A stretch of DNA of 64,000 nt, from NCBI GenBank assembly GCA_000934665.2, contig JYFJ02001477.1, positions 1 to 64,000 on the forward strand, read 5' to 3'. The translations under genes and the position numbers were made by a program. A model generated the notes under the pieces. The model saw nothing but the letters and a program-made list of their open reading frames with translations. It did no database searches and was not told the origin of the DNA. The stretch is from Catajapyx aquilonaris (taxonomy: Eukaryota). Shown here one piece after another: positions 44 to 38,768 of this stretch (within the stretch, counting starts at the first letter, position 1; every line of letters begins with the position of its first letter).

Positions 44-3000
44 ATGGCATCAGCAGTAGAAGAGAAGGACAGGAAGAGCGAGCTGCACGTAGCAGCAGAA
101 GGAGGGGATTTCAAGATGGTGGAGTTGCTCCTCCAACGAGGTGAAGACGTGAACATCCGAACGGATTTCCTTCGCCGGACCCCACTCATTTTGGCTGCGA
201 GGGCTCCCTACCTCGGGGTCTGCGAGATGCTGCTGTCACACTCTCAGTGTGACGCCAATGCCCAAGACGAGTTGGGCAGATCGGCTCTGCACGAAGCGGC
301 GGAGAAAGGCAGCGTGCACATATGCCGTCTCCTCCTGGACCGTGGTGCACAGGTGGACATCCGAACCAACGATGGGTTCATTCCCTTACACCTAGCGGCC
401 AGGGCTGGTCATCTGATGGTGGCCAAACTCCTGGCCCAGAAGGGAGCTGACCTTTTGGCCAAGACTAAGGATGGAAAGACCCCCTCATACTTTTCTGTCG
501 AGGAAAGGCATTATGATATGTCCATGTACCTGAACAGCGAAATGGACAAACATGGGATTCCATCAGAAGCCAGGTAATTCCTTCACACACTTTGCACTTA
601 ATGTTCATTTAAGATTAAAGACTAACACCGACTAATGCTGATGAATTCGAACTTTTTAACTTTGATATCTTGTGGCCAAAAAAAATCATATCACCAGAAA
701 GTCAAATTAATTTGCCCACTCAGCCAGCGTAAGAATGAATTTTGAGTAGAACCCTGAAAACATTCAGGCCCTTCTTAACTCTAAAGGGTAGGGGTGAAGG
801 TCATGCTTATTTTATTGTCGCATGTTTTGCCATGCCACCAACAGATCAACTGTGTCTTATTTCATATATTAGATTCCCCATTTATGTTATTCTTTATTTT
901 AATTACTTTCTCTGCATGCATTTCAGGTCGAATGAGAGTGAAACATCCGTAGACACTGATCAAGATCAGCAGTCGACTCAGCAGGTATTTATCATCTTTC
1001 TTCTCCCTTATGGCTAATTAAACTGGCCAGCAATAATTTTGTTACATGAACAATAATTTTAGCTAGGCCTAGGCTGCTTCTTATGCATTCATAAGCACTA
1101 ATTCTGAATGTGAAATAGTATGGAATCAGTCTTTAAATTTCAAGCCAGTAAAGAGGGGAATCGTTTTGATGTGTCTATGTCTGTTTTGAAATCCAATTCT
1201 TGAGTTGGAAGTGATTAATAAATCAGACGGTTGGTTATTTGTTACATTTTAATGAAGATGTACAGCTAACGCGAAGTAGTGAAGACATCCACTTGCCTCT
1301 TTCAGGTCCCGATTATGTCTCCACAGGATGCGCATATGGTCACAGGTGACCATGGAGGAGGATCATCAAGTGAGGCCACTGCAGGACTCAAGCTGGACAG
1401 CCCCGAAACGTGTAGGACAAGACGCAGGGTAGGAAAAGGACAGGGAAGCACACATGTGGACAAGGACACAGTTGACGAGACTGACACGTCATCCGGAAGA
1501 AGTGACGGTATTGGACACAAGGAAGCAGCAAAGGGGATGGACGATTCGAAGGGTAGTCATCGTGGGTCGAGTGGAGCTGGGCAGGAAGGAGCTGGGGATG
1601 CAAGTGGGACACACTCCTCAGGGCAGCATCATGATCAGTTGAGGGCATGGAAGGAGATGCTCGATTCTGCCAACTCCCTAAGTGAAGAAGGCAAATGGAC
1701 AGAGGCTTTACCAGTCTGCAGGATGGTGTTGGTAAAAGAGGAAAAAGTGTTAGGTTACGACCATACGGACACTCTTCAGACAAAGCATGACGTGGCCTGC
1801 ATGCTACTGAACCTAGGGAAGAACGAGGAAGCCTTGTGGGTTCACAAGGATGTTTTGGATAAGAGGGGAAATGTGTTGGGTCATGACCATCCGGAGACTC
1901 TTTGCACAAAGATGAACATGGCAGGGGTGCTACGGAATCAAGGAAAGTACAAGGAAGCCTTGCGTGTTTACAGACAGGTTTTGGATAAGCAGGAAAAAGT
2001 GTTGGGTCATGACCATCTGGACACTCTCAGGGTAAACAGTAACATAGCATTGGTGCTACGGGATCAAGGAAATTACAACGAAGCCTTGCGTGTTTACAGG
2101 GAGGTTGTGGGTAAGCTGGAAAAAGTGTTGGGTCATGACCATCACGACACTCTTTGGACAAAGCATAACATGGCAGGGGTGATAGAGAATCAAGGAAATT
2201 ACGACGAAGCCTTGCATGTTTACGGAGAGGTTTTGGAGAAGAGGGAAAGAGTGTTCGGTCCTGACCATCCGGACACTCTTATGACAGAGATGAACATAGC
2301 GATGGTGCTAAGGGATCAAGGAAATTACGAGGAAGCCTTGCGGGCATACAGGGAGGTTTTGAATAAGCAGGAAACAGTGTTGGGTCATGACCATCCGTAC
2401 ACTCTTGGCACAAAGATGAACATGGCTGAAGTGCTACAGAATCAAGGACATTACGACGAAGCCTTGTGGGCATACAGGGAGGTTTTGAATAAGCAGGAAA
2501 CAGTGTTGGGTCATGCCCATCCGTACACTCTTTTGACAAAGATGAACATGGCTGAAGTGCTACAGAATCAAGGACATTACGACGAAGCCTTGTGGGCATA
2601 CAAGGATGTTTTGGATAAGAGGGAAAAAGCGTTGGGTCATGACCATCCGGAAGCTCTTGAGACAAAGCGTAACATGGCAGGGGTGCTACATAAGCAAGGG
2701 AAGTATGAGGAAGCCTTCCGGACATACAGGGTTGTTTTGAAGAAGCAGGAAAAAGTGTTGGGTCATGACCATCCGGACCCTCTTACGACAAAGAATAACA
2801 TAGCAGGGGTGCTACGGAATCAAGGAAATTACGAGGAAGCCTTGCGTGTTTACAGGGATGTTTTGGAGAAGCAGGAAAAAGTATTGGTTCATGACCGTCC
2901 AGACACTCTTAGGACAAAGCATAACATGGCCCTAGTGTTAGATAATCAAGGCAGGTACGACGAAGCCTTGCGTGTTTACAGGGAGGTATTGGATAAGAAG

Positions 3001-3324
3001 GAAAAAGTGTTGGGCCATGACCATCCAGACACTCTTAGGACAAAGCATGACATAGCAGGGGTGCTACAGAATCAAGGAAATTATGGGGAAGCCTTGCGGT
3101 TATTAACGGAGGTTTTGAATAAGCAGGAAAAAGTGTTGGGTCATGACCATCCGGACACTCTTGTGACAAAGCATAATATGGAAGTCGCACAATTCAGGAG
3201 TAGCAGATTTATACCCAGAATGCTTATGTTATTATTATTTTTATTAGGCCTATTATTATCTTTATTATTATTAAGTGGTTATTTAGAAGGTAACATCTTT
3301 AATTTTTATTTACATGTCATTTAA
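44..3324 (+). CDS. Ankyrin-repeat + 42-aa TPR-repeat (kinesin-light-chain/TPR_12-like) protein, copy A; exons 44-573, 927-984, 1306-3324 (~868 aa), hydrophobic C-terminal tail
   Basis: Exon 1 encodes about 4 ankyrin repeats (ELHVAAEGG, TPLILAAR, SALHEAAEKG, IPLHLAARAGH). GT-AG introns are phase-compatible. The last exon has a low-complexity linker, then 11 full LGHDHPDTLxTKxNxAxVLxxQGxYxEAL repeats plus a capping unit, and a Leu-rich tail (MLMLLLFLLGLLLSLLLLSGYL). Confidence 0.85.
1750..3180 (+). repeat. Coding tandem array of 126-bp (42-codon) TPR units, 11 full + 1 partial
   Basis: LG(Y/H)DH units recur at exact 126-bp spacing from 1750 to 3136. Confidence 0.95.
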
Positions 3325-3949
3325 TGGGATATAGTAACATTAATTTATAATTACCTGAATGATATTCTGCACAAAAGGTGGCGAGAGTGATCGTAAAGGT
3401 ACTCGCCTGTACACTACTTCATACGTAACTAATGCAAGCAACAATGAGAAAATAACAACTTAATCCAGCCAGCCCCACTTTGTGAGAAGGTGGACATGTA
3501 TTTGTGCAAATAACACTGGCGCGCTGCCACAGTGGCAGTTCGACATGTTTGCCCGAGAGCAACATTACCAAGAGACATTCGTGTGCCATTTATACTAATA
3601 ACAGGAGAATCTCCCTCATAATTTTCAGCAACTTGATTATTATCTGAGTGCAGCTGCTGTGCTCATGAAACTCATGTGGTCACAATTAATTAAATGAATT
3701 TTTATGTAAAATATCTGTAAAGGAAAATTTTTTAAACGGTGATATTAGAAAATTATTCTGCGTCGAACTTGGCGTCGAACCATTATAGGCCTACGTTACA
3801 GTAATTCTTATGATTTACCTTGTGAATCTCTTTCCGATGCGATGAAAGGGCGGTAATGATGTCCACTGCATAATCATGTTGTACTTGCAATTTAAATGTA
3901 ATAAATGTGATGAAAACCTGCATATTTTTTTAATTAAAATCTTCCACAG

Positions 3950-4262
3950 TAACGACTAGCGAATAACATGTCAGAGTAGCGGTTCTTCCAGGGTAACAGC
4001 TTACTACGATAGCGCTTAATAACTTCAGATCCTACGCAGGCGTCCGAATGCACCTCTGACGAAATCCAAGATGGCCGCGAAGTAACAGCTTACTACGATA
4101 GCGCTTAACAACTTCCGATTCAATTCGGGCGTCCGAATGCACCTTGTGACGCATTCCAAGATGGCCGCCGATTTTTCTCATCATCATTTGGGAGTTATTA
4201 ATTTTTGCTGATTTTGAGCTCGTTTTGAGGCCTGTCTGGGATGGAATCGGCTGAAGGGTGAG
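3950..4262 (+). promoter_or_regulatory. ZNF-type promoter (two copies of CAGGCGTCCGAATGCACC...CAAGATGGCCGC) and non-coding first exon ending at a GG|GTGAGT donor
   Basis: Motif at 4037-4078 and ~4126-4169, preceded by TAGCG/TAACAG repeats; near-identical to 17205-17520. Confidence 0.65.
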
Positions 4263-4449
4263 TGGGTCGGAGGTCAAAGGTTGTGACCTCCGTACAGGTC
4301 ATGCTATTAGAGCAGGTGGTACAGAAACAATAATGAAATGATCAAAGTAATAATTGATATCACGACCATTGCAAACGTTGTTGCACATTGTTAGTTCAGT
4401 GGTTCATTACTTGCAATTGTAGTAATTCATGGTAAATTTCAGGACGCCA

Positions 4450-5400
4450 ATGCCGATCAAGCAGGAAGTGCAGGACGTGGATGACGACAGCGACGGTTCT
4501 GACGTGTGCAACTTACCGCTGAAAGTTGAGATATCGTCATGCTTAGGCGATGGACCCGCTATTGTTGAACTAGACTGTGAGGTAAAGCAGGAGGTACCGG
4601 AGGCACTCTCAGCATGCTTGGGTGACGGACCGACCATTGTCGAACATGACGAGACGAAGACGTCGCCGGAAGAGGAAATTCTGGTTGCCATACCGGATGT
4701 TGAAAGTGATACAGATGATCCCTTGGCTTCTAATTCATTAGGGAACAGTCAGGTATCAGTCATGCATTATAAATATATGATATCCGATGCGACTAAATAC
4801 GTGTTTCAGGTAGAGGATACGCAAGTGAAACAACAAAAGCCGCATCAAACCGGGAGGAAATCGTTTTGTTGTCATATTTGTCAGAAGAGGTTCAACGAGT
4901 CAGGTGATTTGAAACGCCACGTTAGGACACATACTGGCGAGAAGCTCGTCCAATGTCCGCTTTGCCAGAAAGAGTTTTGCCAGGCGTCCTACATGAAGAC
5001 TCACATGCGTGTGCACACGTTGCACGTTGCACGTTGCGACGTCACCTCGGTACGCATACCGGGGAGAAGCCAGTCAGTTGTCAAGTCTGCCTGAAAAGCT
5101 TCAGTCAGACTAGTGCGTTGAAACGTCACCTGAGGACACACACGGGGGAGAAGATCTACAGCTGTAAAGTGTGCCAGAAGTCATACAGCCAGTCGTCCTA
5201 CCTGAAAATTCACTTGCGGGTGCACACGGGTGAGAAGCCATTCAGCTGCGAGATTTGCCAGAAGAACTTCAGTGAGATGGGCATTCTGAAGCGTCACCTG
5301 GGTACGCACACCGGGGAAAAACCGTTCAGCTGTGAAGTCTGCCGGAAATGGTTCAGCCGCGCAAGCGCACTGAAAACACATTTAAAGACACACCCGCAAG
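4450..5400 (+). pseudogene. Broken duplicate of the C2H2 ZNF gene at 17713-18772 (exons 4450-4752, 4810-~5400)
   Basis: Near-identical to the 17.7-18.8 kb gene. A net 43-nt deletion with a GCACGTT tandem filler at 5019-5033 removes finger 3 and shifts the frame. The 3' end is fused to ankyrin-gene sequence at ~5400. Confidence 0.85.
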
Positions 5401-7166
5401 ACCAAGGATGGAAAGACCGCCTCGTATTTTGCTGTCGAGGAAAGGCATCTTGATATGTCCGTGTACCTGAAAGGCGAGATGGACAATTGTGGGATTCAGT
5501 CAGAAGCTAGGTAATCCATTCGCACACTTTGCACATAATGTTAATTTAAGATTGAAGACTAACACCTCCTAACGCTGATGAGATTGAACTTTTTTGCTTA
5601 TTTTATATCTTCTGGGCAAAAAAAAGATCAATCACCTCTAAGTCAAATTTATATGCCCACTGAGCCAGCGTAAGAATGAATTTTGAGTTGAACCCTGAAA
5701 CATTCAGCCTCTCCCTAACTCTAGGGTAGGGGTGAAGGTCATGCTTATTTTATTGTCGCATGTTTTGCCATGCCACCAACAGATCAACTGTGTCTTATTT
5801 AATGTTAGATTCCCCATTTATGCTATTCTTTATTTTAATTCCTTTCAATGTGTGCATTTCAGGCTGAACGAGAGTAAAACATCTGTAGACACTGATCAAG
5901 ATCAGCAGTCGACTCAGGTATTTATCGTCTTTCTTCTCCCTTCTGGAAAATTTAACTGGCCAGTAATAATTTTGTTAAATGGCCAATAATTTTAGCTAGG
6001 CTGCTTCTTATGCATTCATAGGCGCTAATTCTGAATATGAAATCAGAATTTATATTGGCATCAATTTTCGTGTAACAAGCTACCTTACTTTCCCGGCAGT
6101 AGGCCCTTCTAAGCAGGGCTCAATGTCACACCATCATTTAGGCAAGTTCAATGGCTTAATTTAATAATTTTTGCTGTTTATCTACTGCTATCACAATAGG
6201 GGCAACAGGATTAATCTATTAATTAAGCCATATTAATTATTGCGTACTCACAAATTACAAATTATGTGGGATTTCAAACATGCCTATTGCTCAAAGACTG
6301 TGAGCAATTGAAATAATTTGCAAACATTTCCTTTGAAATCAGCGTTGTTTCCAACCTAGATTGCTAATAATGTGATTTCACGTCATTTTAAAGAGGATTA
6401 TGGATTCAGTCTTTAAATTTCAAGCCAGTAAACAGGGGAATCATGTTCATGTGACTATGGCTGTTTTGAAATCCAATTCTTGAGTTGGAAGTGATAAATA
6501 AATCGGATGGTTGACTGTTACTTGTTACATTTTAACAAACATTGATAGCTGACGCGAAGAAGTGAAGACGTGCACTTGCCTCTTTCAGGTCCCGATCATG
6601 TCTCCACAGAATGCGCATATTGTCACAGGTGAACAAGGAGGAGGATCATCAAGTGGGGCCACTGCAGGACTCAAGCTGGACAGCCCCGAAACTAGTAGGA
6701 GAAGACTAGGGGTAGGAAAAGAACAGGGCAGCACTCACCTGGACAAGGACACACGTGACGAGACTGACACGTCATCCGGAAGTGACGGTATTGGACGCAA
6801 GGAAGTAGCAAAGGGGATGGATGATTCGAAGGGTAGTCATCGCGGGTCAAGTGGAGGTGGGCAGGAAGGAGCTGAGGATGCAAGTGGGACAGGCTCCACG
6901 AAGCATCATCACGATCAGATGAGGGCATGGAAGGAAGTGCTCGATTCTGCTCACTCCCTATGTGAAGAAGGCAAATGGAATGAGGCTTCACCAACACTAT
7001 CTTGTAGACTGCTAAAGTCTACAAGATAGTGTTGGTGAAGGAGGAGGAAGTGTTAGGTTACGACCATCCGGACACTCTTCGGACAAAGCGTAATATGGAA
7101 TCCGCACAAGCCAGGAGTAGCATATTTATACACGCACCGGTACTGCTGAGATTATTTAAAAAGTAG
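5397..7166 (+). pseudogene. ANK-TPR copy B remnant: 3' end of ankyrin exon (to 5510), exon 5863-5917, last exon from 6589 with collapsed TPR array
   Basis: Colinear with copies A and C including introns. The 5' part is missing, there is a frameshifting foldback insertion at ~6986-7015, and the first TPR unit is joined directly to the capping unit (LGYDHPDTLRTK-RNMESAQARSS). Confidence 0.85.
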
Positions 7167-8084
7167 CATCTTTAATTTTCATATCCTTTGCGGCATAGTG
7201 AGCTTGCAATTGCAAACACCTGGAAATATATTTTCCCGCCATAACGGATGGTCTTTGCAAAATAAAAACGCCGTGGATGTCTGCTAGGCTCTATGAGGGA
7301 CAAACTCGAAACTGCCGAAGTATAAGCAGCTCTGCAAAATGGAAACGGGCAGTCATCTAGCTTATGTAAAGCCAACAACTTGTAATATTACGGGTGTTTC
7401 CATTTGGATGTTTCCAGCTGCTCACCTGTTCTTTACATGGTATGAGTGTATGTTTTGTGTGTGTTCATGTCATTGATATCATATTCATCCCATTCATTAA
7501 CTCTTATTTGCGTGACCTGACCAGAGGCTTCATTTTGTCGGTCATACCAGGAGGACAGGTGTAACCTGGACTCCTCTGGATACTGGATTTATGTCGTGAA
7601 GTAAATGATGATGATGACGTTTCCATTGTTGTGAGACAATAATGCCACAGTTATTGTGCACGCAGATGCAGGTGGCCATGCTCTACACTTCTACAGGCAA
7701 TGTTGCACTCTGCCGGTGAAAATTATAATTTTTTAAAAGTTAGTGTGCTTCAGAGTCAACTAAATAATTTTGGGAGTGGCAGTTCTTCACTATTGTTACT
7801 GTTACTGTTTTCAAAGCTCCGCTCAATGTGCCATGGTAGTGGCAAGATGAAAACAACCTCATAACTATGTATAAGTATGTATGAGGCATCACTTTTATGT
7901 TACATTTTTGACTCATTGTGAATCTCTGGCCCGTTCTGTCTCTATAGCTCAAGCTGGCTCTGGCCGATGCAAGGGCGCTACTGTCTGTAATGATGTTCAC
8001 TGCATAATAATGTTGTACTTGCAATTTAAATGTAATAAATGTGATGAAAACCTGCATATTTATTAATATTAAAATCTTCCGCAG

Positions 8085-8320
8085 TAACGACTAGCGAATA
8101 ACACGTCGGAGTAACGGTTCTTTCAGGGTAACAGCTTACTGCGATAGCGCTTAATCCAATCAGATCCGATTCAGGCGTCCGAATGCACCTTGTGACGTAA
8201 TCCAAGATGGCCGCCGATTTATCATTTGCACGTGATCGTTTGGGAGTAATTAATTATATTTTGCTGATTTCCAGCTCGTTTTTTGAGGCCTGTTCGGGAT
8301 GGAATGGACTGAAGGGTGAG
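8085..8320 (+). promoter_or_regulatory. Copy of the ZNF-type promoter and first non-coding exon, here upstream of ANK-TPR copy C
   Basis: CAGGCGTCCGAATGCACCTTGTGACGTAATCCAAGATGGCCGCC at 8172-8215 and a GAAGG|GTGAGT donor at 8315/8316. No ZNF coding exon follows; a candidate acceptor TTTTGTGCAG lies at 9486, before the ankyrin ATG. Confidence 0.6.
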
Positions 8321-9565
8321 TGGGTAGCAGGTCAAAGGTTGTCACCGCCGATTATTGACCAGCAGTGGGATGAGGCGATATAAACCCTAAGTGGTATCTT
8401 AGATAATTGTTATTTTCAACCTGGAAACACTTGAGAAGCATTTTCAAGGACATCCTCAAAGAAGCACAGCCATTGCTACGACCAGGTCAAAGCCTTTCAT
8501 CACGAATTATATTTATCTCTTCAGACCTAATCCACTTAAATTAACTTAGAGGTAATTTTCATACAGAACTTCCCAGAATAACTTTCTTGTTCCACTTTGG
8601 TGTCACAAACTCACTGTAAATCAAAATAAAATATATGCAATTGGGTGTTACGTAGGAACCTTTTCTTGGTAATCAATATTCACAAGGGGTTCAAGCTGTC
8701 ATACTGTGCCCAGAAGGCTGAGAGTATATTGCACAATGTCACCTTGCGATGAGCCACAGTGAATGGAGACCGATTAACACTTGCAGTGTATCTTATCTGA
8801 TTGTTTGCACGGATTGAAGCCAGTCTAATGCCAGATGTATGAAGCGCAATTTAAGGTGCGTACACTTGATAAAAAAAAATTGTAATCAAATGTTTAAGTG
8901 CTTGTGCATGACGTCACACCTTGGACTCGAGCAGAAATGCCTGGCAGGAATTTCACATGATCAACACACGATTATCCGATATGAAAGGAACACAAACCGT
9001 ATACACATCTTTAATTTGCAACGAGCAATCTTTGAGTGCACATCGTTTCTTTCTGCGCGGAAGATCAGGATATTTTCAACTCAACCCTACAAATCTGCAT
9101 AGAGCAGGTGAGAGGTTATTATTTTATCCTTACGTCTTGTCTTGCTCGTACATAGGTCCATATACCCATCACTAGGAGGGGGAAACACAATTATTAGGAT
9201 TTACAAAGAGATTGTGACATATTCTACAATTTCGTGAATGATTTATTTAGAACTGGCTTTGAATATTATTGCGGTTTTGAGGAGGATTACGTGAAGCAAT
9301 TCCTATTGGCATGTAAAATATTTGATAGTGTGCGTGATTCTACATTTGTGAGGAATTGATTTAGGATTGAGATATGCAACAATCAGAATTTACTCCGCAC
9401 CTTGTACTGTACAGTACATGTGCCACATTTGTGACACTGTTTCCACCTCCCATCGGAATCAATGATTTTTTAATCATTTTGTGCAGGGCAGCTGTGTAGC
9501 GTGTAGCCATCTCCAGGTGGACTGGAAGTGTCCCTGCTGCAGTCTTATCCACACAATCCAGGGAA

Positions 9566-12500
9566 ATGGCATCAGCAGTAGAAGAGAAGGACAGGAAGAG
9601 CGAGCTGCACGTAGCAGCAGAAGGAGGGGATTTCAAGATGGTGGAGTTGCTCCTCCAACGAGGTGAAGACGTGAACATCCGAACGGATCTCCTTCCCCGG
9701 ACCCCACTCATTTTGGCTTCGAGGGCTTCCTACGTCGGGGTCTGTGAGATGCTGCTGTCCCACTCTCAATGTGATGCCGATGTCCAAGACGAGTTAGGCA
9801 GATCTGCTCTGCACGAAGCGGCGGAGAAAGGCAGCGTGCAAATATGCCGTCTCCTGCTAGACAATGGTGCACAGGTGGACATCCGAACCAGCGATGGGTT
9901 CACTCCCTTGCACCTAGCGGCCAGGGCTGGTCATCTGATGGTGGCCAAGCTCCTGGTCCAGAAGGGAGCTGACATTCTGGCTAAGACCAAGGATGAAAAG
10001 ACCGCCTCGAATTTTGCTGTCGAGGGAAGGCATTTTTATCTGCACATGTACCTGAGAGATGAGATGGACAAACGTGGGGTTCCATCAGAAGCCAGGTAAT
10101 TCCTTCACACACTTTGCGCTTAATGTTAATTTAAGATTAAACACGAACATGACTAATGCTGATGAATTTGAACTTTTTATCTTTGATATCTTCTGGGCAA
10201 AAAGAAATGTCATCTCAAAGTCAAATTTATTTGCCCACTGAGCCAGTGTAAGAATGAATAGTTTTGAGTTGAACCCTGAAGCATTCAGCCCCTCCCTAAC
10301 TCTAGGGTAGGGGTGAAGGTCATGCTTATTTTGTCTCATGTTTTGCCATGCCACCAACAGATCAACTGTGTCTTATTTAATGTTATATTCCCCATTTATG
10401 TTATTCTTTATTTTAATTCCTTTCTGTGCGTGCATTTCAGGTCGAATGAGAGTAAAACATCCGTAGACACTGATCAAGATCAGCAGTCGACTCAGGTATT
10501 TATCATCTCTCTTCTCCGTTCTGGAAAATTAAACTGGCCAGCAATAATTTTGATACATAAACAATTTCAGCTAATTCTTATGCATTCATAGGCGCTAATT
10601 CTGAATGTGAAATCAGAATTTCTAATGGCATCAATTTTCTTGTGGCAGACCTTACTGTCCCGGCAGTAGGCCCTTCTACTCACGGCTCAATGTCACTATC
10701 ATGTAGGCAGCAATTCCTTTATTTAACCATTTTCGCTGTTTATCTACTGCTACCACAATAGGGGCAACATAATATTAATCCATTAATTAAGCCATATTAA
10801 TCATTGCTTACTCACAAATTACAAATTATGTGGGATTTCAAACATGCCTATTGCTCAAAAACTGTGAGCGATAGAAATAATTTCCAAACATTTAATTTGA
10901 AATTAGCATCGTTTCCAACCGAGATTGATAATAATATGATTTCACCTCATTTTAACCCTGGAACTGTGCCGTGTGGTCTTTTCGGACCCCAAAGCAATTA
11001 ACCCTGTAGCGGGCATTGTTGCCTGAGGGCAACAATTAATTTGCGCAGGCGCCATAAGCTTCAACATTGGTCCTGGAAACCACAGTGTGGCTTGATGTCA
11101 CAGTTAGTTTGTTAGCTTCCGCTGGATGACATGCAATGTCGACAATGTTACGATCGGGATATGGTATGAAGCGGAGAAAAGCCAAGGTCGTTGAAAATGG
11201 CACGAAATTTTGAATTTGCTGAAGCAGCAATTGTTTCTGGAGCTGATTAGATATAGGTGCAGATATTAAATAGCCAATTGCATGTGTAACACTGCAAGAG
11301 TAGCTCTCTCGTCGCCATTTGAGGCCATTCTAATTTTGCCAGCACAAATTCATTACAATTTTTTGGCAGCGCAGGCACAGTATTGCTTGAGGTTTGAGTC
11401 CTAAGTCATTGTACGTATTTTTATTCAAAAACGGAACCATGTACAGACATGACTATGTTTTTAAGGTCCGGCGATTACAATTTGGACTGGAATATAGATG
11501 GCCCCTAGATCTCAAGGGGAGCCGGTAAACGAAAGGGGATCGTGACCCCCACACCCCGAGCTGCATGAGACGGTGGAAGGGTGGGGGTTATGATCGCCTT
11601 TATTTTCTGGACCCCCTTGCGATATGGATGCCATCTATTTATCAGATGAAATTGTAATCACCGGACCTTCAAAACTTAGCAAAGGTCACCTCTGTGTGTG
11701 TTACCATTTTTGAATAAAAAAATACTCGCCATGACTTTTGACTGTCCTGGTGTAACTTCAAAGTCATTGGGTCAGAGATGACCAAAACATAATAAAAACC
11801 ATCCTTACGTCGCATATGATGAGAAAAAGGCGTTAGATTTTTTAATTCCCACAATCCTAAATGTGTGCAGTACAGGGTTAAAATGCATTAAAATTTCCAT
11901 TACAATGAACTGTTTGGCAATTTTTAAAAGTATATAACAGGAAGTTCACGTTTATTTTGAATTAGCGATCATTTTAGGCATGATTGCATATAGTCAATAC
12001 ATTGAAAAGTATTATATACAAATTTTGAACAATTAAAATATGGCGTAGGGTCCTAGAAGACCCCGCGGCACAGTTAACGTAACTGTCAGGCACGGCACGG
12101 TTCCAGGGTTAAAGAGGATTGTTGCTCATCTGATTTCACACGTTGATGAATGTTGTTGGTCATGTCGGAATCTCGTGATTTGCTGTCACCATAATTATTC
12201 ATCCACCTGTTGAAGGGCAATCAGTTGAAGAGCAATACTGGCCCGCTTGCAACAAAATGTACATGCTAATTTATCTTTCCTTGTACGATGAGCTATCTTG
12301 TCTTCCTGAAATATTTGAAAAAGATGATTCAAGGACGTACTATGGATTCAGTCTTTAAATTTCAAGCCAGTAAAGAGAGGAATCGTTTTGATGTAACTAT
12401 GGCTGTTTTGAAATCCAATTCTTGAGTTGGAAGTGATAAATAAATCAGACGGTTGGTTATTTGTTACATTTTAATGAAGATGTATAGCTAATGCAAAGAA

Positions 12501-13814
12501 GTGAAGACGTTCACTTGCCTCTTTCAGGTCACGATCATGTTTCCACAGAATGCGCAGATTGTCTCAGGTGAACACGAAGGAGGATCACTGAGTGAGGCCA
12601 CTGCAGGACTCAAGCTGGACAGCCCCAAACCTAGTAGGAGAAGACTCGTGGTAGTAAAAATTCAGGGCAGCACTCAAGTGGACAAGGACACAGGTGACGA
12701 GACAATACCGTCATCCGGAAGAAGTGACGGTATTGGACGCAAGGGAGCAGCAAAGGGGATGGACGATTCGAAGGGTAGTCATCGCGCGTCGAGTGGAGGT
12801 GGGCAGGAAGGAGCTGGGGATGCAAGTGGGACACACTCCTCAGGGCAGCAGCATCAACAGATGAGGGCATGGAAGGAAGTGGTAGATTCTGCTCACTCCC
12901 TACATAAAGCGGGCAAATATAATGAGGCTTTAGCATTCTACAGGAGAGTGTTGGTGGAGGAGGAGGAAGTGTTAGGTTACGACCATCCAGACACTCTTCG
13001 GACAAAGCATGACGTGGCCTGCGTGCTACAGTACCAAGGGAAGTACGACCAAGCCTTGTGGGCATACAGGGAGGTTTTGAATATGCAGGAAAAAGTGTTG
13101 GGTCATGACCATCCGGACACTCTAAGGACAAAGATGAACATAGCCAACGTGTTACATGACCAAGGGAAGCCCTCAGAAGCCTTGCGGATTTACAGGGAAG
13201 TTTTGGCTAAGCAGGAACAAGTGTTGGGTCATGACCATCCGGACACTCTTCGGACAAAGCATAACATGGCAGGGGTGCTACGGAATCTAGGAGATTATGA
13301 CGGAGCATTGCGGATTTACAGGGAAGTTTTGGAAAATATGGAAAAAGTGTTGGGCCATGACCATCCGGACACTCTTGGGTCAAAGGTGAACATAGCCAGC
13401 GTGTTAGATGACCAAGGGAAGTACGAGGAAGCCTTGCGGGCATACAGGGAGGTTTTGGATAAGCAGGAACAAGTGTTGGGTCATGACCATCCCAACACTC
13501 TTAAGACAAAGAATAACATGGCAGGGGTGTTATGGAATCAAGGCAATTATGACGAAACCTTGCGGTTATTAAGGGAGGTTTTGGATAAGAGGGAAAAGGT
13601 TTTGGGCCGTGACCATCCGGACACTCTTGCAACAAAGATGAACATGGCCTTAGTGTTAGATGACCAAGGGAAGTACGAGGAAGCCTTGCTGATTTACGGG
13701 GAGGTTTTGAATAAGCAAGAAAGAGTGTTGGGTCATGAACACCCAGACACTCTTATGACAAAGCGTAATATGAAAGCTGCACAAGTCAGGAGTAGCATTA
13801 CCCTGAATGCTTAG
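9566..13814 (+). CDS. Ankyrin + 42-aa TPR protein, copy C; exons 9566-10095, 10441-10495, 12528-13814 (~623 aa)
   Basis: Same exon structure as copy A with an open frame across the splices; 6 full TPR units (12972-13727) plus cap; no hydrophobic tail. Confidence 0.85.
10956..12108. mobile_element. Non-autonomous piggyBac-like element (TTAA TSD) in intron 2 of ANK-TPR copy C
   Basis: TTAA|CCCTGGAACTGTGCCGTG ... CACGGCACGGTTCCAGGG|TTAA (17/18 TIR match). The paralogous intron at ~6385-6400 has the empty site CATTTTAAAGAGGATT. Confidence 0.9.
11463..11669. repeat. Imperfect ~200-bp inverted repeat (MITE-like) inside the piggyBac-like element
   Basis: AAGGTCCGGCGATTACAATTT pairs with AAATTGTAATCACCGGACCTT, with further internal complementarity. 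Confidence 0.6.
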
Positions 13815-14726
13815 GAGGTAATTTAGAAGGTAACCTCTTTAATTCTTATTTACATATCACTTAATGGGATAGAGTAGCATAAATTTTTAATTACCTGAAT
13901 GATCTTTTGCACTAAACATGGCCAGATCGATCGTAAAGTCACTCGCCTGTACACACGGGTGTAACCCGTAGCGTGGGTTGCCAGTGCCCGGGGCAAGGCA
14001 AGTATTGCGCCCCCCTAAACATGTATTGTCTTTTAAGAAAATACTGATGTAAAATCAAAGAAAACGCCTTTAAAGGGACACTCCACTCAAAAGACAAGTT
14101 GATGGTCTCTAAAGATTGGGCAAAAAATTCTGAATCCGAAGGTGCAATCCGTTTTTCGCTACGCGGAACGGTAATCCCAGGGCGAGTGGTCAAAGTGGGG
14201 AAATTCAAATAGTGCGCTAGAAGCTGGCCGTCCGTATATGCTCCCTGGTTATGTTGCAAAGATGTTGGGTCTCATGTTGCTTATTCTAAATCTGGTGACC
14301 ATGTTTAAATTCGATGATATTTGGATTAAGAAGTGTAATAAACATGACTGATCATCTTGCAAAGATATTGATTAATTTGCTTTTGTAATGGGGGTTTTGA
14401 GTAGGGCTGTCACAGAGCAGGTAATTCCAATCCTGGCTGTAAATTGTGCTAGCGGAGGATGTGCGGAGTAGTCACTTCTCCAGCCGAGTGCTTCAAGTCT
14501 GGAAGCTCAGTTTGTTTCCGTCTGCATCTTAGTACTTGGGACAACAGAAACAGCTTGGATTTTATCCCTAGCAGCATGGGAAGTGAGGATTCATCAGGAT
14601 TCATAAGTGGCGGAGAAAGATGCAAGCAAACCAACCGGTGGATATCTAGGATTTGGAGTACAATAATTAGTGTGCAAGTCATGTAAAACGAATTTACAGT
14701 CATTGATTCATTCCTTTTCATTTCAG

Positions 14727-14856
14727 GCTCCACCCATGACCTTTTCTGACTTCCCACCTTAGATTAAACTGACAGTGAGTGTGTTCTCATGCTTGTCGCA
14801 AGATGATGTCATCCTGGGAGCAGGCTTGGTGTGCAAAGAATGGCTGAGGTTGCGGC
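14727..14856 (+). pseudogene. Decayed F-box exon fragment
   Basis: After a TTTCAG acceptor, ATG 14736 reads MTFSDFPP*IKLTVSVFSCLSQDDVILGAGLVCKEWLRL, which fits the F-box pattern (LPxE...F..L...D......VCKxW) with TAG at the conserved Glu. Confidence 0.6.
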
Positions 14857-15061
14857 ATGCCGGTGTAGCCAAGGTCGACCAGTTTTTATCAATACACAAT
14901 CTGGTGGCAATACCAGCATGCCGGTATAGGGCGAGGTATGCCGGTAAGGCGAGGTTTTCACATAAGTTACATTGAACTTGACATTTGCCTGAAAAAAAAA
15001 TCACATAAAGGTTATCGAAAAGGCACATTTTTCAGAATCTTTTGTTTTCAATTGCAGTGTA

Positions 15062-15223
15062 CAGTGCTGGCCATATATCGAGGCAACCGCCAGCGACATT
15101 TGTCCGAAGCGGCAGAAGCAGGAATGTTGCTCGCCCGGCTTGTAGCATGCTTATCTTCGATTCCTTCTTCTGCCGCTTCGGAAAAATGTCGCTGGCGGTT
15201 GCCTCAATATATGGCCAGCACTG
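15062..15223. mobile_element. Tc1/mariner-type MITE, 162 bp, TA TSD
   Basis: TA|CAGTGCTGGCCATAT...ATATGGCCAGCACTG|TA with ~58-bp near-perfect arms. Confidence 0.85.
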
Positions 15224-15906
15224 TACCTGGCAATAATAATCTCTATTTAAAACCAGGCTGGCTATGGGATTGGACACGCAATCTACATTTTTTATATGCA
15301 CTGTGCAACAGAACTCGCATATTCTCAGAGCCTGTACACTCGCCCATTATCATCATAACATAATTTCAGGCAAACCGAGCGTTACAGAAAAGAGATACGG
15401 TCAGGGGCTGTCATGAAGATCGATTAACACTCGCAGTGTATCTTATCTGCTAATCCCAGATGTATTTGACCCCAAAGAATTGTAATCAAATGCGTAAGTG
15501 ATCAACACAATCCGATATAAAAGGAACTCAAACCGTATACACATCTTTAATTTGCAACGAGCAATCTTTGAGTGCACATCGTTTTTTTCTTCGCGGAAGA
15601 TCCGGATATTTTCAACTCAAACCTACTAATCTGCATAGAGCAGTTGATAGGTTATTATTTTGCCATTATTAGGTTTTACAACGGGATTCTGACATGTGCG
15701 GGATATTCTACAATTTTGTGAATGATTTATTTAGAACTGACGGAGGCTTTTAATGTTATTGCGGTTTTAAGGAGGATTATATGAAGCAATTCCTATTGGC
15801 ATGTAAAATATTTGATAATGTGCGTGATTCTACATAGGGTTTGTGAGGAATGGGTTTAGGATTGATATAGGGCCTACGTAACAATCCGAATTAACTCCAC
15901 CTTGTA

Positions 15907-16068
15907 CAGTGTTGGTCATTAATCGATTCATACTGCTAGAGACATTTTCCAAAGCGGCAGAAGAACGAATCAAAGATATGGATAGTGCAAGCCGTGCGAG
16001 CAAGATTTGTTATTCTGCCACTTTGGAAAATGTCGCTAGCAGTATGACTCTATTAATGTCCAACACTG
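15907..16068. mobile_element. Tc1/mariner-type MITE, 162 bp, TA TSD (diverged relative of 15062-15223)
   Basis: TA|CAGTGTTGGTCATTAAT...ATTAATGTCCAACACTG|TA; absent from the paralogous site at ~9405. Confidence 0.85.
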
Positions 16069-16199
16069 TATGTAGAGTATACAGCATGTTCCACATTTGT
16101 GAATCTGCTTGAATCTCCTATTGAAGAACAATACTGGCCTGCTTAGCAACAAAATACATATAATTATGTTAATTTATTTTTCTTTGTAAGTATGACCTA

Positions 16200-16354
16200 C
16201 AGTGCGGAAAACGAAACGACGATCTGACGTCATCGTTTCTGACCACTTTCTTACTTTGTTCTTTTTTGTTGACATTGTTTACTCATGCTGTTGTATGAGG
16301 GTATCTCCATGGAAACCTTGATGACTTTAGATCGCCGTTTCATTTTCCACATTG
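16200..16354. mobile_element. TA-flanked MITE
   Basis: TA|CAGTGCGGAAAACGAAACGACGATCT...AGATCGCCGTTTCATTTTCCACATTG|TA; the paralogous empty site is GAGCTATCTTGTCTTCC at ~12290-12306. Confidence 0.8.
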
Positions 16355-17204
16355 TATCTCTTCTTCCTGAAATATTCGAAAAAGAGCATTCAAGGAGGTC
16401 CTATGGATTCAGTCTTTAAATTTCAAGCCAGTAAAGAGGGCAATCGTTTTGATGTAACTATGTCTGTTTTGAAATCCTATTCTTGAGTTGGAAGTGCTAA
16501 ATAAATCAGACGGTTGGTTATTTGTTACATTTTAATGAAGATGTATAGCTAACGCGAAGAAGTGAAGATATGCACTTGCCTCTTTCAGGTCCCGATCAAT
16601 ATTAATCTAGCAAGCACCACTTGTGAGAAGGTGACATGCACTTTCCTTGTGATGATTACTCGCTTTATGTGCGTTGCTCAAAGGTACTGCCTTATAATAA
16701 GGAATACCCGGGTAAGTGGAACCCATGGCCACAATAATAAGTCACACTGAAAATAATATCCTGTCTGCCATTTGCCTGGAAACAATGCAAATAACTCTGG
16801 TGCGCTGCCACGACATGGTTGCCCGACAGCAACATTACCAAGAGACATACGTGTGCCATTTATACTCAATATAACATGAGAAAGCATCCTCATAATTTTC
16901 AGCAACTTGATTATTACCTGAGTGCAGCTGCTCATGAAGCTCGTGTGGTTACAATTAATTAAATGAATTTTTTTGTAAAATATCTTCAAATGAATATTTT
17001 TAAATGGTGATTTTAGAAAATTATTCTACGTCGAACCATTAGCCCTACGTTACAAGAACTCTTATTATTTACCTTGTGAATCTCTGGCCGATGCAAGGGC
17101 GGTAATGACTCCAATGATGTCCACTGAATAATCATGTTGTACTTGCAATTTAAATGTAATAAATGAGATGAAAACCTGTATATTTTTTAAATTAAAATCT
17201 TCCA

Positions 17205-17520
17205 CAGTAACGTGTAGCTAATAACATATTAGAGTAACGGTTCTTCCTGGGTAACAGCTTAATACGATAGCGCTTAATAACTTCAGGTCAGATTCAGGCG
17301 TCCGAATGCACCTCTGACGAAATCCAAGATGGCCGCCAAGTAACAGCTTACTAAGATAGCGCTTAATAACCTCCGATTCGATTCAGGCGTCCGAATGCAC
17401 CTTGTGACGAAATCCAAGATGGCCGCCGATTTTTCTCATCATCATTTGGGAGTTATTAATTTTTGCTGATTTTGAGCTCGTTTTGAGGCCTGTCCGGGAT
17501 GGAATCGGCTGCAGGGTGAG
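17205..17520 (+). promoter_or_regulatory. ZNF-type promoter (motif at 17295-17337 and 17384-17427) and non-coding exon, donor at 17515/17516
   Basis: Duplicated CAGGCGTCCGAATGCACC..AATCCAAGATGGCCGCC with a YY1-like CAAGATGGC core. Confidence 0.65.
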
Positions 17521-17712
17521 TGGGCCGTCGAAGGTCAAAGGTTGTGACCGCAGTACAGGCCATGCTATTAGAGAACAGGTTGTACAGAAACAATAATGAA
17601 ATGATCAAAGTAATAATTGATATCACGACCATTGCAAACGTTGTTGCACATTGTTAGTTCAGTGGTTCATTACTTGCAATTGTAGTAATTCATGGTAAAT
17701 TTCAGGACGCCA

Positions 17713-21681: not shown

Positions 21682-21968
21682 CTCTTATCGATTTAAGGCA
21701 GATATGTCTTCATTATTTAATTAATTGCTAGCCAATTAACCCATGGAATCCGACGAAAGGTGAGTGGACAGGTAGGCTGACGGGACGGGCTGGGAATGGG
21801 ACGGGTCGGATGATCCTAATTATGATGCCGCTTGCTCCAGAAGGAAGAATATGACAAGGAAATGGTTAAAAAGGTGTCACCATAATGAGCCTTTTACCTT
21901 CTGATGCCAAATTAATGGTTCAAAGGGCTCGTTGCACATTTTTCTGACTATGGCCCACTTTCAGGAGC

Positions 21969-38601: not shown

Positions 38602-38768
38602 AGGGAATGTGGTTGCCGCTTCGGCGCTGGTGTAGTCCCCAAGGCCCTGGCGGACGATTCTGCCTTTAGTAGAAGCACTTCGTATCGATATCGATTCTAC
38701 TAAAGTCAGAATCGTCCGCCAGGGCCTTGGGGACTATACACCAGCGCCGAAGTGGCAACCTACTCCCT
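38602..38768. mobile_element. Palindromic MITE-like element
   Basis: ~64-bp arms GGTTGCCGCTTCGGCGCTGGTG...TTTAGTAGAA / TTCTACTAAA...CACCAGCGCCGAAGTGGCAACC with AGGGA..TCCCT ends. Confidence 0.7.

What the first reader, a model, noticed from the sequence alone, without database searches (positions are those of the whole stretch)
44..16600. Hypervariable ankyrin-TPR gene family with a shuffling 126-bp repeat array (candidate immune or recognition receptor system)
Seen: four tandem paralogues carry 11, 0, 6 and no TPR units, while the ankyrin exon is highly conserved between copies A and C. Within the 42-aa repeat the scaffold is nearly fixed, but a few positions vary freely: after TL (Q,C,R,W,M,G,L,E,T,R,R,V in copy A; R,R,R,G,K,A,M in copy C), after TK, after A, and the two residues before QG. 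Their spacing (i, i+3, i+7, i+10/11) places them on one helix face. Established: helix A lines the concave ligand groove of TPR solenoids, and high-identity repeats with hypervariable surface residues are the hallmark of fungal NLR sensor domains. Inference: this is a modular, recombination-diversified binding protein, possibly with a repeat-by-repeat recognition code, but with an ankyrin module and no NTPase domain.
Basis: partly seen in the sequence, partly recalled or inferred. Interest (0 to 1): 0.8.

Follow-up and report, generated by a model that had tools for sequence, protein, structure and literature searches.

The report
Fast-evolving ankyrin-TPR binder gene cluster
Two neighbouring genes of an unidentified, arthropod-like animal encode proteins whose long TPR repeat groove changes its lining residues faster than silent sites change, the mark of a binding protein being retuned, but what it binds and whether it serves immunity is not known.

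Summary
Window 44-16600 contains two intact paralogous genes. A is predicted at 868 aa and C at 623 aa. Each has an exon with four ankyrin repeats, a micro-exon, and one large exon. That exon encodes an orphan, probably disordered linker and a kinesin-light-chain-type 42-residue TPR array of 11.5 (A) or 6.5 (C) units. Two further copies are remnants that lack exactly the array.

Across the 17 full units, 22 of 42 columns are nearly fixed. Unit positions 11, 14, 18 and 21 (canonical TPR positions 2, 5, 9 and 12) lie on one face of helix A. They evolve at omega about 4 (M2a vs M1a LRT 29.7 to 38.8). None of 59 null simulations with extreme recombination, and none of 21 without, reached the observed LRT. 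Four helix-B sites (27, 32, 38, 40) also score. Units show exchange (PHI p = 0.002; unit A7 is a mosaic).

No NTPase domain was found in the 62 ORFs scanned. The linker has no relative among 1.84 billion cluster representatives.

Not supported or untested:
- The repeats are only 78% identical in DNA, below the fungal "high internal conservation" standard.
- The ankyrin exon is no better conserved than its introns.
- Expression, polymorphism, ligand and any immune role are untested.

Verdict: a real, fast-diversifying binder family and a new variant of a known evolutionary pattern. Interest is moderate.

The parts
44..573 (+). Gene A exon 1: start codon and four ankyrin repeats plus a cap (176 codons + 2 nt), donor GT at 574
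   Evidence: ORF and sequence; Pfam Ank/Ank_2 E 2e-33 to 4.5e-36; the donor context is identical in copy C. The splice site is predicted only.
927..984 (+). Gene A exon 2: 58-nt micro-exon (completes an R codon, then SNESETSVDTDQDQQSTQQ)
   Evidence: AG/GT boundaries keep the frame. It is conserved in copy C at 10441-10495, which is 3 nt shorter. Predicted only.
1306..3324 (+). Gene A exon 3: linker (1306-1746), TPR array and tail, stop at 3322-3324
   Evidence: Open frame of 672 codons. The linker has 1 hit among 1.84 billion representatives, and that hit covers only its TPR-like cap.
1747..3180 (+). TPR array A: 11 full 126-bp units plus a 48-nt half unit
   Evidence: TRF; in-frame units; Pfam TPR_12 E 8.6e-130; AlphaFold2 all-helical solenoid, pLDDT 93.8.
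3181..3324 (+). Tail of A, including a hydrophobic stretch (Kyte-Doolittle 19-residue mean 2.84) encoded by T/A-rich low-complexity DNA; absent from C
   Evidence: A 5-nt indel relative to C lies just after the half unit.
5397..6043 (+). Remnant B, part 1: last ~115 nt of an ankyrin exon plus intron sequence
   Evidence: Self-BLAST: 460-1116 matches 5397-6043 at 86.7%.
6399..7029 (+). Remnant B, part 2: linker exon only; the frame stops where the array should start
   Evidence: Self-BLAST: 1119-1713 matches 6399-6993 at 88.3%; ORF 6553-7029 has no Pfam family.
9566..10095 (+). Gene C exon 1: ankyrin repeats
   Evidence: Pfam Ank E 5.4e-35; 91.1% nt identity to A with no gaps.
10441..10495 (+). 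Gene C exon 2: micro-exon (55 nt)
12528..13814 (+). Gene C exon 3: linker, TPR array and short tail
12969..13772 (+). TPR array C: 6 full units plus a half unit, with a two-unit (252-bp) higher-order period
   Evidence: TRF: period 252 gives 82% matches against 74% for period 126; identity matrix shows C2/C4/C6 against C3/C5; Pfam TPR_10 E 5e-84.
16355..16598 (+). Remnant D: 244 bp spanning the acceptor and the first codons of the linker exon
   Evidence: Self-BLAST: 12294-12537 matches 16355-16598 at 92.6%. It is followed from 16811 by the copy of the zinc-finger gene segment.

Best explanation
The cluster is young and evolves by gene birth and death. It encodes intracellular two-module binding proteins.

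Architecture. Each intact gene makes an N-terminal ankyrin module of four repeats plus a cap. A lineage-specific linker of about 165 residues follows; it is rich in Ser, Gly, Asp and Lys and is probably disordered. The C-terminal module is a solenoid of 42-residue TPR repeats of the kinesin-light-chain type.

Binding surface. Helix A of every repeat lines the concave groove. A conserved Asn (unit position 15, TPR position 6) runs down that groove. Around it sit four positions per repeat (unit 11, 14, 18, 21; TPR 2, 5, 9, 12) that have been replaced faster than silent sites. I read the groove as the ligand-binding surface, most likely for an extended peptide. Its specificity has been retuned repeatedly.

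Sources of new arrays. Units duplicate and are lost (11.5 against 6.5 units; total loss in remnants B and D). Units also exchange sequence.

Shown here: the architecture, the fold class, site-specific omega above 1, exchange between units, maintenance of the reading frames, and the absence of an NTPase domain nearby.

Inferred: that the ligand is a peptide, that the proteins are cytosolic (no N-terminal hydrophobic stretch), that they take part in some evolutionary conflict or recognition task, and that they are expressed.
For: Domains and fold:
- Pfam finds the ankyrin and TPR_12/TPR_10 families.
- The closest solved sequences are KLC1/2 TPR domains (E 1.6e-41) and the 42-residue-repeat proteins 4Y6W and 4Y6C (E 1e-21).
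- The AlphaFold2 model has pLDDT 93.8 and pTM 0.90, with alternating 16- and 19-residue helices.
- Foldseek finds TPR superhelices: OGT, APPBP2 and KLC.

Selection:
- M0 omega is 0.85-1.02 although 22 of 42 columns are nearly fixed.
- The M2a vs M1a LRT is 29.7 (p 3.6e-7). A class of 19% of sites has omega 3.9. Posterior above 0.95 at positions 11, 14, 18, 21 and 32.
- On a tree built from the other 34 codons the LRT is 38.8 and omega 4.5 at the same sites, with 27, 38 and 40 added.
- In a faster pipeline the real LRT is 32.95. Null M1a simulations reached it in 0 of 21 runs without recombination (maximum 5.97). They reached it in 0 of 59 runs with six independently shuffled blocks (maximum 24.41).
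- In six non-overlapping nearest-neighbour unit pairs, non-synonymous change at the four sites was 4.5 times the synonymous change of all sites (Fisher p 1.6e-5).
- Site-11 codons keep the third base (mostly NNG) while the first two vary.

Position of the sites:
- Helix A spans unit positions 7-22.
- The motif register puts the sites at TPR positions 2, 5, 9 and 12. These are reported as concave-face ligand positions (passages of PMC1261162).
- In KLC, helix A lines the groove (passages of PMC5642895).

Exchange between units:
- PHI p is 0.0025 and 0.002 for windows of 5 and 10 sites.
- A7 matches A6 at 95 of 99 nt (codons 1-33) and matches A1 at 25 of 27 nt (codons 34-42).

Genes kept intact:
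- There are 0 gap events in 971 aligned exon nt (ankyrin exon plus linker), against 7 in 342 nt of intron 1.
- No stop codon or indel occurs in any of the 19 units.
Against: - No RNA evidence exists. Exon junctions are predicted from sequence alone.
- The material is 17 units of two genes from one genome, and the sites were picked on the same data.
- Recombination is present. It inflates the LRT: nulls reached 24.4.
- Outside the selected sites constraint is weak. Omega is 0.52 in the ankyrin exon and 0.70-1.16 in the linker. It is 1.04 for the other 34 codons in the six young pairs.
- Whole-unit omega in those pairs (1.37) does not differ significantly from 1 (p 0.24).
- Four selected sites lie in helix B, so the signal is not confined to one face. 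I had no model coordinates to check their orientation.
- The tree-free count (27 minimum changes against 11.8 expected) is post hoc. By my own rough estimate, the four most variable of 42 neutral sites could give a similar sum.
- Two of the four copies are dead.
- My codon-model code is home-made. It was checked only against the IQ-TREE M0 estimate.
Confidence: 0.6

Rival explanations
1. It is an immune or non-self recognition receptor family. The variable TPR groove senses pathogen, symbiont or mobile-element proteins. The ankyrin module signals or recruits an effector. This would work like a fungal NLR sensor domain or an IFIT-type protein without a NOD switch. It is a more specific version of the best explanation.
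For: - Site-specific omega of about 4 on the groove face.
- Unit exchange and copy-number change.
- Tandem birth and death of copies.
- The same pattern is documented for TPR sensor domains of fungal NLRs and proposed for brown-algal NB-ARC-TPR genes.
- Word depth in the DNA runs is 10-15 times baseline over ankyrin exon A and 3-10 times over the later units. This hints at more near-identical copies elsewhere (a hint only, since depths of contigs are summed).
Against: - No NACHT, NB-ARC, TIR, Death or other signalling domain in the 62 ORFs scanned.
- No expression, infection-response or polymorphism data.
- Fast-evolving binders also arise in reproduction, in the control of selfish elements, and in plain subfunctionalisation after duplication.
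- Internal repeat identity is far below that of the fungal sensors.
Confidence: 0.2
2. It is neutral or nearly neutral turnover of a weakly constrained repeat protein. On this view the groove positions vary only because they are exposed and structurally free. The omega above 1 would be an artefact of gene conversion, a small sample and choosing sites after seeing the data.
For: - Magliery and Regan find the same positions to be the most variable across all TPRs.
- Recombination is demonstrated and inflated null LRTs up to 24.4.
- A neutral class holds 42-43% of sites.
- Omega is about 1 for the other 34 codons in young pairs.
- Omega is 0.5-1.2 in the non-repeat parts.
Against: - Relaxation gives an omega of at most 1, not about 4.
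- The observed LRT (32.95) exceeded all 59 extreme-recombination nulls and all 21 non-recombinant nulls.
- The result holds on a tree built without the candidate codons.
- Reading frames and the 126-nt register are strictly kept, whereas introns collect indels.
Confidence: 0.15
3. It is a gene captured from an intracellular bacterium or a virus, where ankyrin- and TPR-rich effector-like proteins are common. It would then have been domesticated, given introns and amplified.
For: - I saw no ankyrin family among the 120 listed relatives of the TPR exon. Those relatives are mostly fungal and bacterial, and one is a Wolbachia protein at 43% identity.
- A Wolbachia ankyrin protein is among the ankyrin-exon hits at 39% identity.
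- The linker is an orphan.
Against: - All hits are only 30-51% identical. That level is expected between any consensus-like TPR_12 arrays, so no donor stands out.
- The gene has two GT-AG introns conserved between the paralogues.
- It sits among ordinary animal genes: C2H2 zinc fingers, dynactin p22, a CSPG4-like gene and integrin alpha.
- Length limits and crowding in the searches make the absence of animal relatives weak evidence.
Confidence: 0.05

Closest known systems
TPR sensor domains with high internal conservation in fungal NOD-like receptors (Podospora anserina; Dyrka et al. 2014, PMC4986451, passages read)
   Same: - Kinesin-light-chain-type TPR motifs.
- A conserved scaffold with a few positively selected sites that map to the concave side.
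- Change in repeat number.
- Evidence of exchange between repeats.
   Different: - No NACHT or NB-ARC domain here; an ankyrin module sits at the N-terminus instead.
- Repeats are 78% identical in DNA on average, against more than 85% in the fungal class.
- The host is an animal.
- Polymorphism between individuals has not been shown.
NB-ARC-TPR genes of the brown alga Ectocarpus with 42-aa TPR exons (Zambounis et al. 2012, PMC3341825, passages read)
   Same: - A 42-residue TPR unit.
- Clustered genes with birth and death of copies.
- Reshuffling of units that obscures paralogy.
- A candidate recognition role inferred from evolution alone.
   Different: - There each unit is a separate exon and shuffling is by exon; here the whole array lies in one exon.
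- There the genes have an NB-ARC domain.
- There positive selection on the TPR units was weak (5 of 245 lineages); here the site signal is strong.
Kinesin light chain TPR domain and the 42-residue ('42PR') class of TPR-like repeats (PDB 7AI4, 3NF1, 3ZFW; 4Y6C and 4Y6W; nomenclature as quoted in PMC5642895)
   Same: - Best sequence matches among solved structures.
- 42-residue period with lengthened helices A and B.
- Helix A lines a peptide-binding groove.
   Different: - KLC has six repeats, a non-TPR insert and an N-terminal coiled coil that binds the kinesin heavy chain. It is conserved and single-copy in function.
- Here there are 6.5-11.5 near-consensus repeats, an ankyrin head and rapid change.
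IFIT proteins of vertebrates (recalled from memory; no call made)
   Same: They are TPR-only immune effectors without an NTPase. They are encoded in tandem clusters that evolve by duplication, gene conversion and positive selection. This is a precedent for a recognition role of a TPR protein without a NOD switch.
   Different: - They are not homologous in sequence.
- IFITs bind RNA 5' ends in a pocket between TPR subdomains.
- They have no ankyrin module and no near-identical repeat array.

Membership tests
NLR / STAND receptor with a TPR sensor (fungal type) | Central NACHT or NB-ARC NTPase domain | tested here: not met
   Pfam found only ankyrin, TPR and zinc-finger families in 7 ORFs. It found nothing in 55 further ORFs. 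That is 62 of the 147 ORFs of at least 45 aa in 1-17 kb; 85 were not scanned. Gene A's 5' flank lies outside the window. For gene C, the scanned plus-strand ORFs in the 4 kb upstream had no family.
NLR / STAND receptor with a TPR sensor (fungal type) | High internal repeat conservation (more than 85% in Dyrka et al.) | tested here: not met
   Mean identity is 78% nt and 64% aa. 8 of 136 unit pairs reach 85% nt and 0 of 136 reach 85% aa.
NLR / STAND receptor with a TPR sensor (fungal type) | Positive selection at concave-face repeat positions | tested here: met
   The register places the sites at TPR positions 2, 5, 9 and 12. Four extra helix-B sites were not placed.
NLR / STAND receptor with a TPR sensor (fungal type) | Repeat-number polymorphism between individuals | not testable with these tools
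   The only DNA runs found are four runs of one sample. Paralogues differ (11.5 against 6.5 units), but that is not allelic variation.
Kinesin light chain | N-terminal heptad-repeat region, six TPRs and a non-TPR insert between TPR5 and TPR6 | tested here: not met
   The N-terminus is ankyrin. The arrays have 11.5 and 6.5 uninterrupted units. Similarity is confined to the TPR motif.
42-residue TPR-like repeat class (42PR); Pfam TPR_12 / TPR_10 | 42-residue period with lengthened helices A and B and the TPR_10/TPR_12 sequence signature | tested here: met
   The period is exactly 126 nt with no indels. Pfam TPR_10 gives 11 stretches matching profile positions 1-42 of 42. Helices are 16 and 19 residues long. 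4Y6W and 4Y6C hit at E 1e-21.
Ankyrin repeat proteins (Pfam Ank clan) | Tandem 33-residue ankyrin repeats | tested here: met
   Four stretches of PF00023, at E 2e-33 (A) and 5.4e-35 (C).

The most novel reading that the evidence does not exclude
An animal, apparently an arthropod-like lineage with no known NLR of this kind, has built a germline-encoded recognition repertoire from NOD-less ankyrin-TPR proteins. Each 42-residue unit would present a conserved backbone-gripping Asn plus a variable quartet (TPR 2, 5, 9, 12). Unit order and number, reshuffled by recombination, would then spell out the specificity for an extended peptide, unit by unit. That would be a natural modular peptide-reading code, analogous to designed repeat-peptide binders. 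The raised read depth over ankyrin exon A and over many units would mean that dozens of such genes exist.
Probability: 0.1. Interest if true: 0.8.

Novelty: new variant of a known kind. Interest (0 to 1): 0.5.

Why it matters
The pattern of a fixed repeat scaffold with a fast-changing binding face and reshuffled units is the evolutionary signature of recognition proteins. It is known from fungal NLRs, VLRs, plant LRRs and designed DARPins or TPRs. It has hardly been described for TPR arrays in animals. I know of no case fused to an ankyrin module without a nucleotide-binding switch, though I made no literature search dedicated to that architecture.

If the family is expressed and polymorphic, it would be a candidate for a new type of intracellular recognition or restriction factor in an invertebrate. 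It would also be a natural library of groove variants useful for engineering peptide-binding TPRs. If it is not expressed, it remains a clean example of how tandem coding repeats diversify.

Tried and rejected
- Whole-genome search: no genome is held for this window, so the family size could not be counted.
- Homologue searches. The TPR exon gave 2430 hits among 7999 scored candidates, and the 120 listed were generic TPR_12 proteins at 28-51% identity. The ankyrin exon with longer targets was swamped by ankyrin-1/2/3. Neither search found an orthologue or a fused form. Length limits and crowding make this weak evidence of absence.
- The ESM Atlas returned only generic TPR clusters, and its recognition value was below the tool's reliability mark.
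- Sequencing runs: no RNA holder was listed. The runs found were four DNA runs of one sample, plus run X5 of unknown kind from another study.
- Laying the runs:
  - X5 carries a GT..AG joint at 4256>4442 inside the neighbouring zinc-finger gene, so it may hold spliced RNA.
  - X5 contigs lie on 3133-3866, 12656-12850 and 13660-14186.
  - No joint linking the ankyrin, micro- and TPR exons was listed.
  - No joint inside either array appeared among the 15 joints listed; 2 more were not shown.
  I draw no conclusion on expression or array polymorphism from this.
- Tree-free minimum-change count: the ratio was 2.3 and the binomial p 0.0015. I do not rely on it, because the four sites were chosen after seeing the data.
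- CpG hypermutability as the cause of variation at Arg codons. Arrays have a CpG observed/expected ratio of 0.56. However, most site-11 codons are AGG or other NNG codons rather than CGN, and the Arg sites 31 and 34 are much less variable. Rejected as the main cause.
- The long antisense ORFs through the arrays (212, 167 and 191 aa) have no Pfam family. An array whose unit lacks a stop in that frame is expected to give them.
- Marold et al. 2015 (PMC4811334) is not held. I know it only from its citation and summary in PMC5642895 and from recall.
- Literature searches for an ankyrin plus TPR_12 family in animals found nothing specific. They were two keyword searches and are no proof that none is in print.
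- Earlier findings of this scan: there are none for this genome and no look-alike stretches. The word search returned only ankyrin arrays of phages, giant viruses and an alga.

Full report
WHAT IS THERE

The window is eukaryotic. No genome is held for it. A neighbouring CSPG4-like gene has its best named relatives in arthropods at 32-39% identity, with Schistocerca at 39%. The source is therefore probably an arthropod-like animal whose proteins are not in the databases.

Tandem Repeats Finder reports two coding arrays of period 126 bp without indels. They lie at 1739-3171 (11.4 copies) and 12967-13763 (6.3 copies). Self-BLAST shows the region is a nest of segmental duplications:
- Copy A has an ankyrin exon at 44-573, a micro-exon at 927-984 and a large exon at 1306-3324.
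- Copy C has the same three exons at 9566-10095, 10441-10495 and 12528-13814.
- Remnant B keeps the end of the ankyrin exon, the introns and the linker exon. Its frame stops where the array should start (5397-6043, 6399-7029).
- Remnant D is 244 bp (16355-16598).

C2H2 zinc-finger genes are duplicated along with these copies (3541-5401 and 16811-18708). In both remnants the array is the part that is missing.

Exon borders are predicted from GT/AG sites that keep the frame and are conserved between A and C. The predicted proteins are 868 aa (A) and 623 aa (C).

DOMAINS AND FOLD

Pfam finds four ankyrin repeats in exon 1, at E 2e-33 (A) and 5e-35 (C). The large exons match TPR_12 and TPR_10 at E 1e-126 to 1e-130 in A and 1e-81 to 1e-84 in C.

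The 147-residue linker has a single hit among 1.84 billion cluster representatives (E 3e-6). That hit covers only its TPR-like cap.

Among solved structures the best sequence matches are the kinesin light chain TPR domains (E 1.6e-41). The 42-residue-repeat proteins 4Y6W and 4Y6C follow at E 1e-21.

I folded the TPR domain of A with AlphaFold2, using an alignment of 30 sequences. The model is confident, with pLDDT 93.8 and pTM 0.90. It consists only of alternating helices of 16 and 19 residues. Foldseek finds TPR superhelices: OGT, APPBP2 and KLC.

In unit numbering (V1 L2 G3 H4 ...), helix A spans positions 7-22. Helix B runs from position 26 to position 2 of the next unit.

No NACHT, NB-ARC, TIR or death-fold domain was found. 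I scanned 62 of the 147 ORFs of at least 45 aa in 1-17 kb. The 5' flank of gene A lies outside the window.

THE REPEAT UNITS

There are 17 full units, 11 in A and 6 in C, and each gene ends in a half unit.
- Mean pairwise identity is 78% in DNA (range 68-92%) and 64% in protein.
- 8 of 136 pairs reach 85% in DNA.
- 4 of 42 columns are invariant, and 22 carry one residue in at least 15 of 17 units.

Entropy peaks at position 11 (3.06 bits, 11 residue types). Positions 21, 18, 38, 14, 32, 27 and 25 follow.

The TPR signature fits at every anchor: M/I16, A17, L20, G24, Y26, A29, Y33 and V36 correspond to canonical positions 7, 8, 11, 15, 17, 20, 24 and 27. This register places positions 11, 14, 18, 21 and 22 at canonical TPR positions 2, 5, 9, 12 and 13.

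Magliery and Regan report positions 2, 5, 9, 12, 13, 33 and 34 as the most variable positions of TPRs, all on the concave face. They report that positions 2, 5, 6, 9, 12 and 13 contact the ligands of HOP (passages). In KLC, helix A lines the groove (passages).

On a helical wheel positions 11, 14, 18 and 21 fall within about 80 degrees. The conserved Asn15 (14 of 17 units; canonical position 6) sits next to them (my arithmetic).

SELECTION

- A one-ratio codon model gives omega 0.85-0.98 in IQ-TREE and 1.02 in my own implementation. This is very high for a unit in which half the columns are nearly fixed.
- With all branch lengths optimised, M1a has lnL -1167.92 and M2a has lnL -1153.08. The LRT is 29.7 (p 3.6e-7). 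19% of sites fall in a class with omega 3.9. Posterior is above 0.95 at positions 11, 14, 18, 21 and 32, and about 0.8 at 27, 38 and 40. Position 22 is not selected.
- On a topology inferred from the other 34 codons only, the LRT is 38.8 with omega 4.5 at the same eight sites.
- The youngest unit pairs have whole-unit omega of 2.0-4.5 (A2-A4, A3-A9, A6-A7, A1-C1), but each rests on only 1-2.5 synonymous differences.
- In six non-overlapping nearest pairs, whole-unit omega is 1.37 (not significant) and the 34 other codons give 1.04. Replacement change at the four helix-A sites is 4.5 times the synonymous change of all sites (p 1.6e-5).

Recombination can create false positives, and it is present here. 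PHI p is 0.0025 and 0.002 for windows of 5 and 10 sites and 0.035 for 15. A7 equals A6 at 95 of 99 nt and then equals A1 at 25 of 27 nt.

I therefore simulated the fitted M1a null and analysed each data set with the same fast pipeline. That pipeline gives LRT 32.95 for the real data.
- Without recombination, 0 of 21 simulations reached the observed value (maximum 5.97).
- With six blocks each placed on an independently shuffled tree, 0 of 59 reached it (maximum 24.41).

The signal therefore survives an extreme recombination null at roughly p < 0.02. The nominal chi-square p-values should not be quoted as such.

A tree-free minimum-change count points the same way but is post hoc. CpG decay of Arg codons is not the main cause.

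This approach aligns the units of an array and tests sites. Dyrka et al. and Zambounis et al. used the same approach. It shows that units diverged adaptively from each other. It does not show allelic hypervariability.

ARE THE GENES ALIVE?

Between A and C the ankyrin exon is 91.1% identical. That is no more than intron 1 (91.5%) or the 3' part of intron 2 (93.1%). The 'conserved ankyrin exon' therefore reflects a recent duplication (dS 0.15, omega 0.52) and not strong constraint. The linker is more diverged (84.6%; omega 0.70-1.16 among A, B and C).

Exons are protected from frame damage:
- There are 0 gap events in 971 aligned coding nucleotides, against 7 in 342 intron nucleotides.
- All 19 units keep the 126-nt register without a stop.

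I conclude that A and C are, or recently were, functional, and that B and D are dead.

Expression could not be tested, and what was tried is listed under Tried and rejected. In the DNA runs, summed word depth is 10-15 times baseline over ankyrin exon A and 3-10 times over the later units of A and the units of C. This hints that more near-identical copies lie elsewhere in the genome. The tool warns that such depths are not copy numbers.

HOW IT MOST LIKELY WORKS

- The N-terminus has no hydrophobic stretch, so the proteins are probably intracellular.
- The TPR solenoid offers a long concave groove. A ladder of conserved Asn side chains runs along it, flanked in every repeat by four fast-changing residues.
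- This is the layout expected for binding an extended peptide. The backbone would be held by the conserved residues and the side chains read by the variable ones.
- The ankyrin module would provide a second, more slowly changing contact, for a partner or an effector.
- New specificities arise by point substitution at the four sites, by duplication or loss of units, and by exchange between units. Array C also has a two-unit higher-order period.
- The ligand, the pathway and any link to immunity are inference.

COMPARISON WITH WHAT IS KNOWN

The evolutionary pattern is that of the TPR, ANK and WD sensor domains of fungal NLRs. There, three TPR positions on the concave side are under positive selection and repeat number is polymorphic. 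It also resembles the 42-aa TPR units of brown-algal NB-ARC-TPR genes.

Membership in that class fails on two defining features. There is no NOD domain, and repeat identity is below the 85% criterion.

Structurally the array belongs to the 42-residue KLC-type TPR class, but the gene is not a kinesin light chain.

The combination of an ankyrin head, an orphan linker and a KLC-type TPR array did not turn up in any search here:
- I saw no ankyrin Pfam family in the 120 rows listed.
- Two keyword literature searches found nothing specific.
These searches are limited, so the combination may still be in print or in databases.

Earlier follow-ups in this scan found the same 'fixed scaffold, variable face' pattern in ankyrin arrays of phages, giant viruses and an alga. 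The pattern as such is therefore recurrent.

VERDICT

The immune-receptor reading is possible but unsupported by any direct evidence. I rate it a new variant of a known kind, of moderate interest.

Noticed in passing
window 3541-5453 and 16811-18772; also 20148-20960, 21948-23063, 26214-27149: A cluster of C2H2 zinc-finger genes is interleaved with the ankyrin-TPR copies and duplicated along with them (92-96% identity). In the first copy the finger region is split over two overlapping frames (4426-5094 and 4926-5453). It lacks a stretch that is present in the second copy. All laid runs show a joint at 5018>5029.
   Followed up: partly
window 4256-4442: Run X5, of unknown kind, has a contig that skips 185 nt with GT..AG ends. 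This is probably an intron of the zinc-finger gene and a sign that X5 holds spliced RNA.
   Followed up: no
window 38000-54000: A G+C-rich block (50-62% against about 40% around it) holds two genes. One is CSPG4-like on the plus strand, with a laminin G domain, CSPG/Cadherin_3 repeats and a C-terminal QYWV. The other is an integrin alpha gene on the minus strand, with FG-GAP repeats and Integrin_A_Ig_2. Both have unusually long exons of up to 647 codons.
   Followed up: partly
window 10527-12188, 13851-14404, 14959-16600: Stretches inside intron 2 of gene C and downstream of it have summed word depths of 1000-18000 in the DNA runs, against a baseline of 20-80. They are high-copy dispersed repeats, presumably transposable elements. 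None of the scanned ORFs there had a Pfam family.
   Followed up: partly
window 3181-3324: Gene A, but not gene C, reads on after the last half unit into T/A-rich low-complexity DNA. This encodes a Leu-rich hydrophobic stretch (19-residue hydropathy mean 2.84). It could be an accidental extension after a 5-nt indel or a tail anchor.
   Followed up: partly
window 1388-2026, 2279-2782, 12631-13206 (minus strand): Long antisense open frames (212, 167 and 191 aa) run through both TPR arrays. None has a Pfam family. A repeat unit without a stop in that frame is expected to give them.
   Followed up: yes
window 27558-28109 (minus) and 58413-60524 (plus): A dynactin p22 homologue (E 6e-21). Two adjacent ORFs have weak, sub-threshold matches to the telomere protein CTC1 (E 4e-5 and 2e-6).
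   Followed up: partly
window 3993-4168 and 17251-17427; 24677-25076; 31151-31848; 35910-36738: Non-coding tandem repeats. An 89-bp doublet is duplicated along with the zinc-finger segment. There is a 135-bp triplet, a TTAT-rich microsatellite field, and a 31-bp minisatellite of about 25 copies.
   Followed up: no
window 8467-9747: In the DNA runs of one sample, a contig at single-copy depth joins 8467 to 9747 (inside ankyrin exon C) with 12 other letters in between. It could be another haplotype or another paralogous locus with a differently broken ankyrin exon.
   Followed up: no
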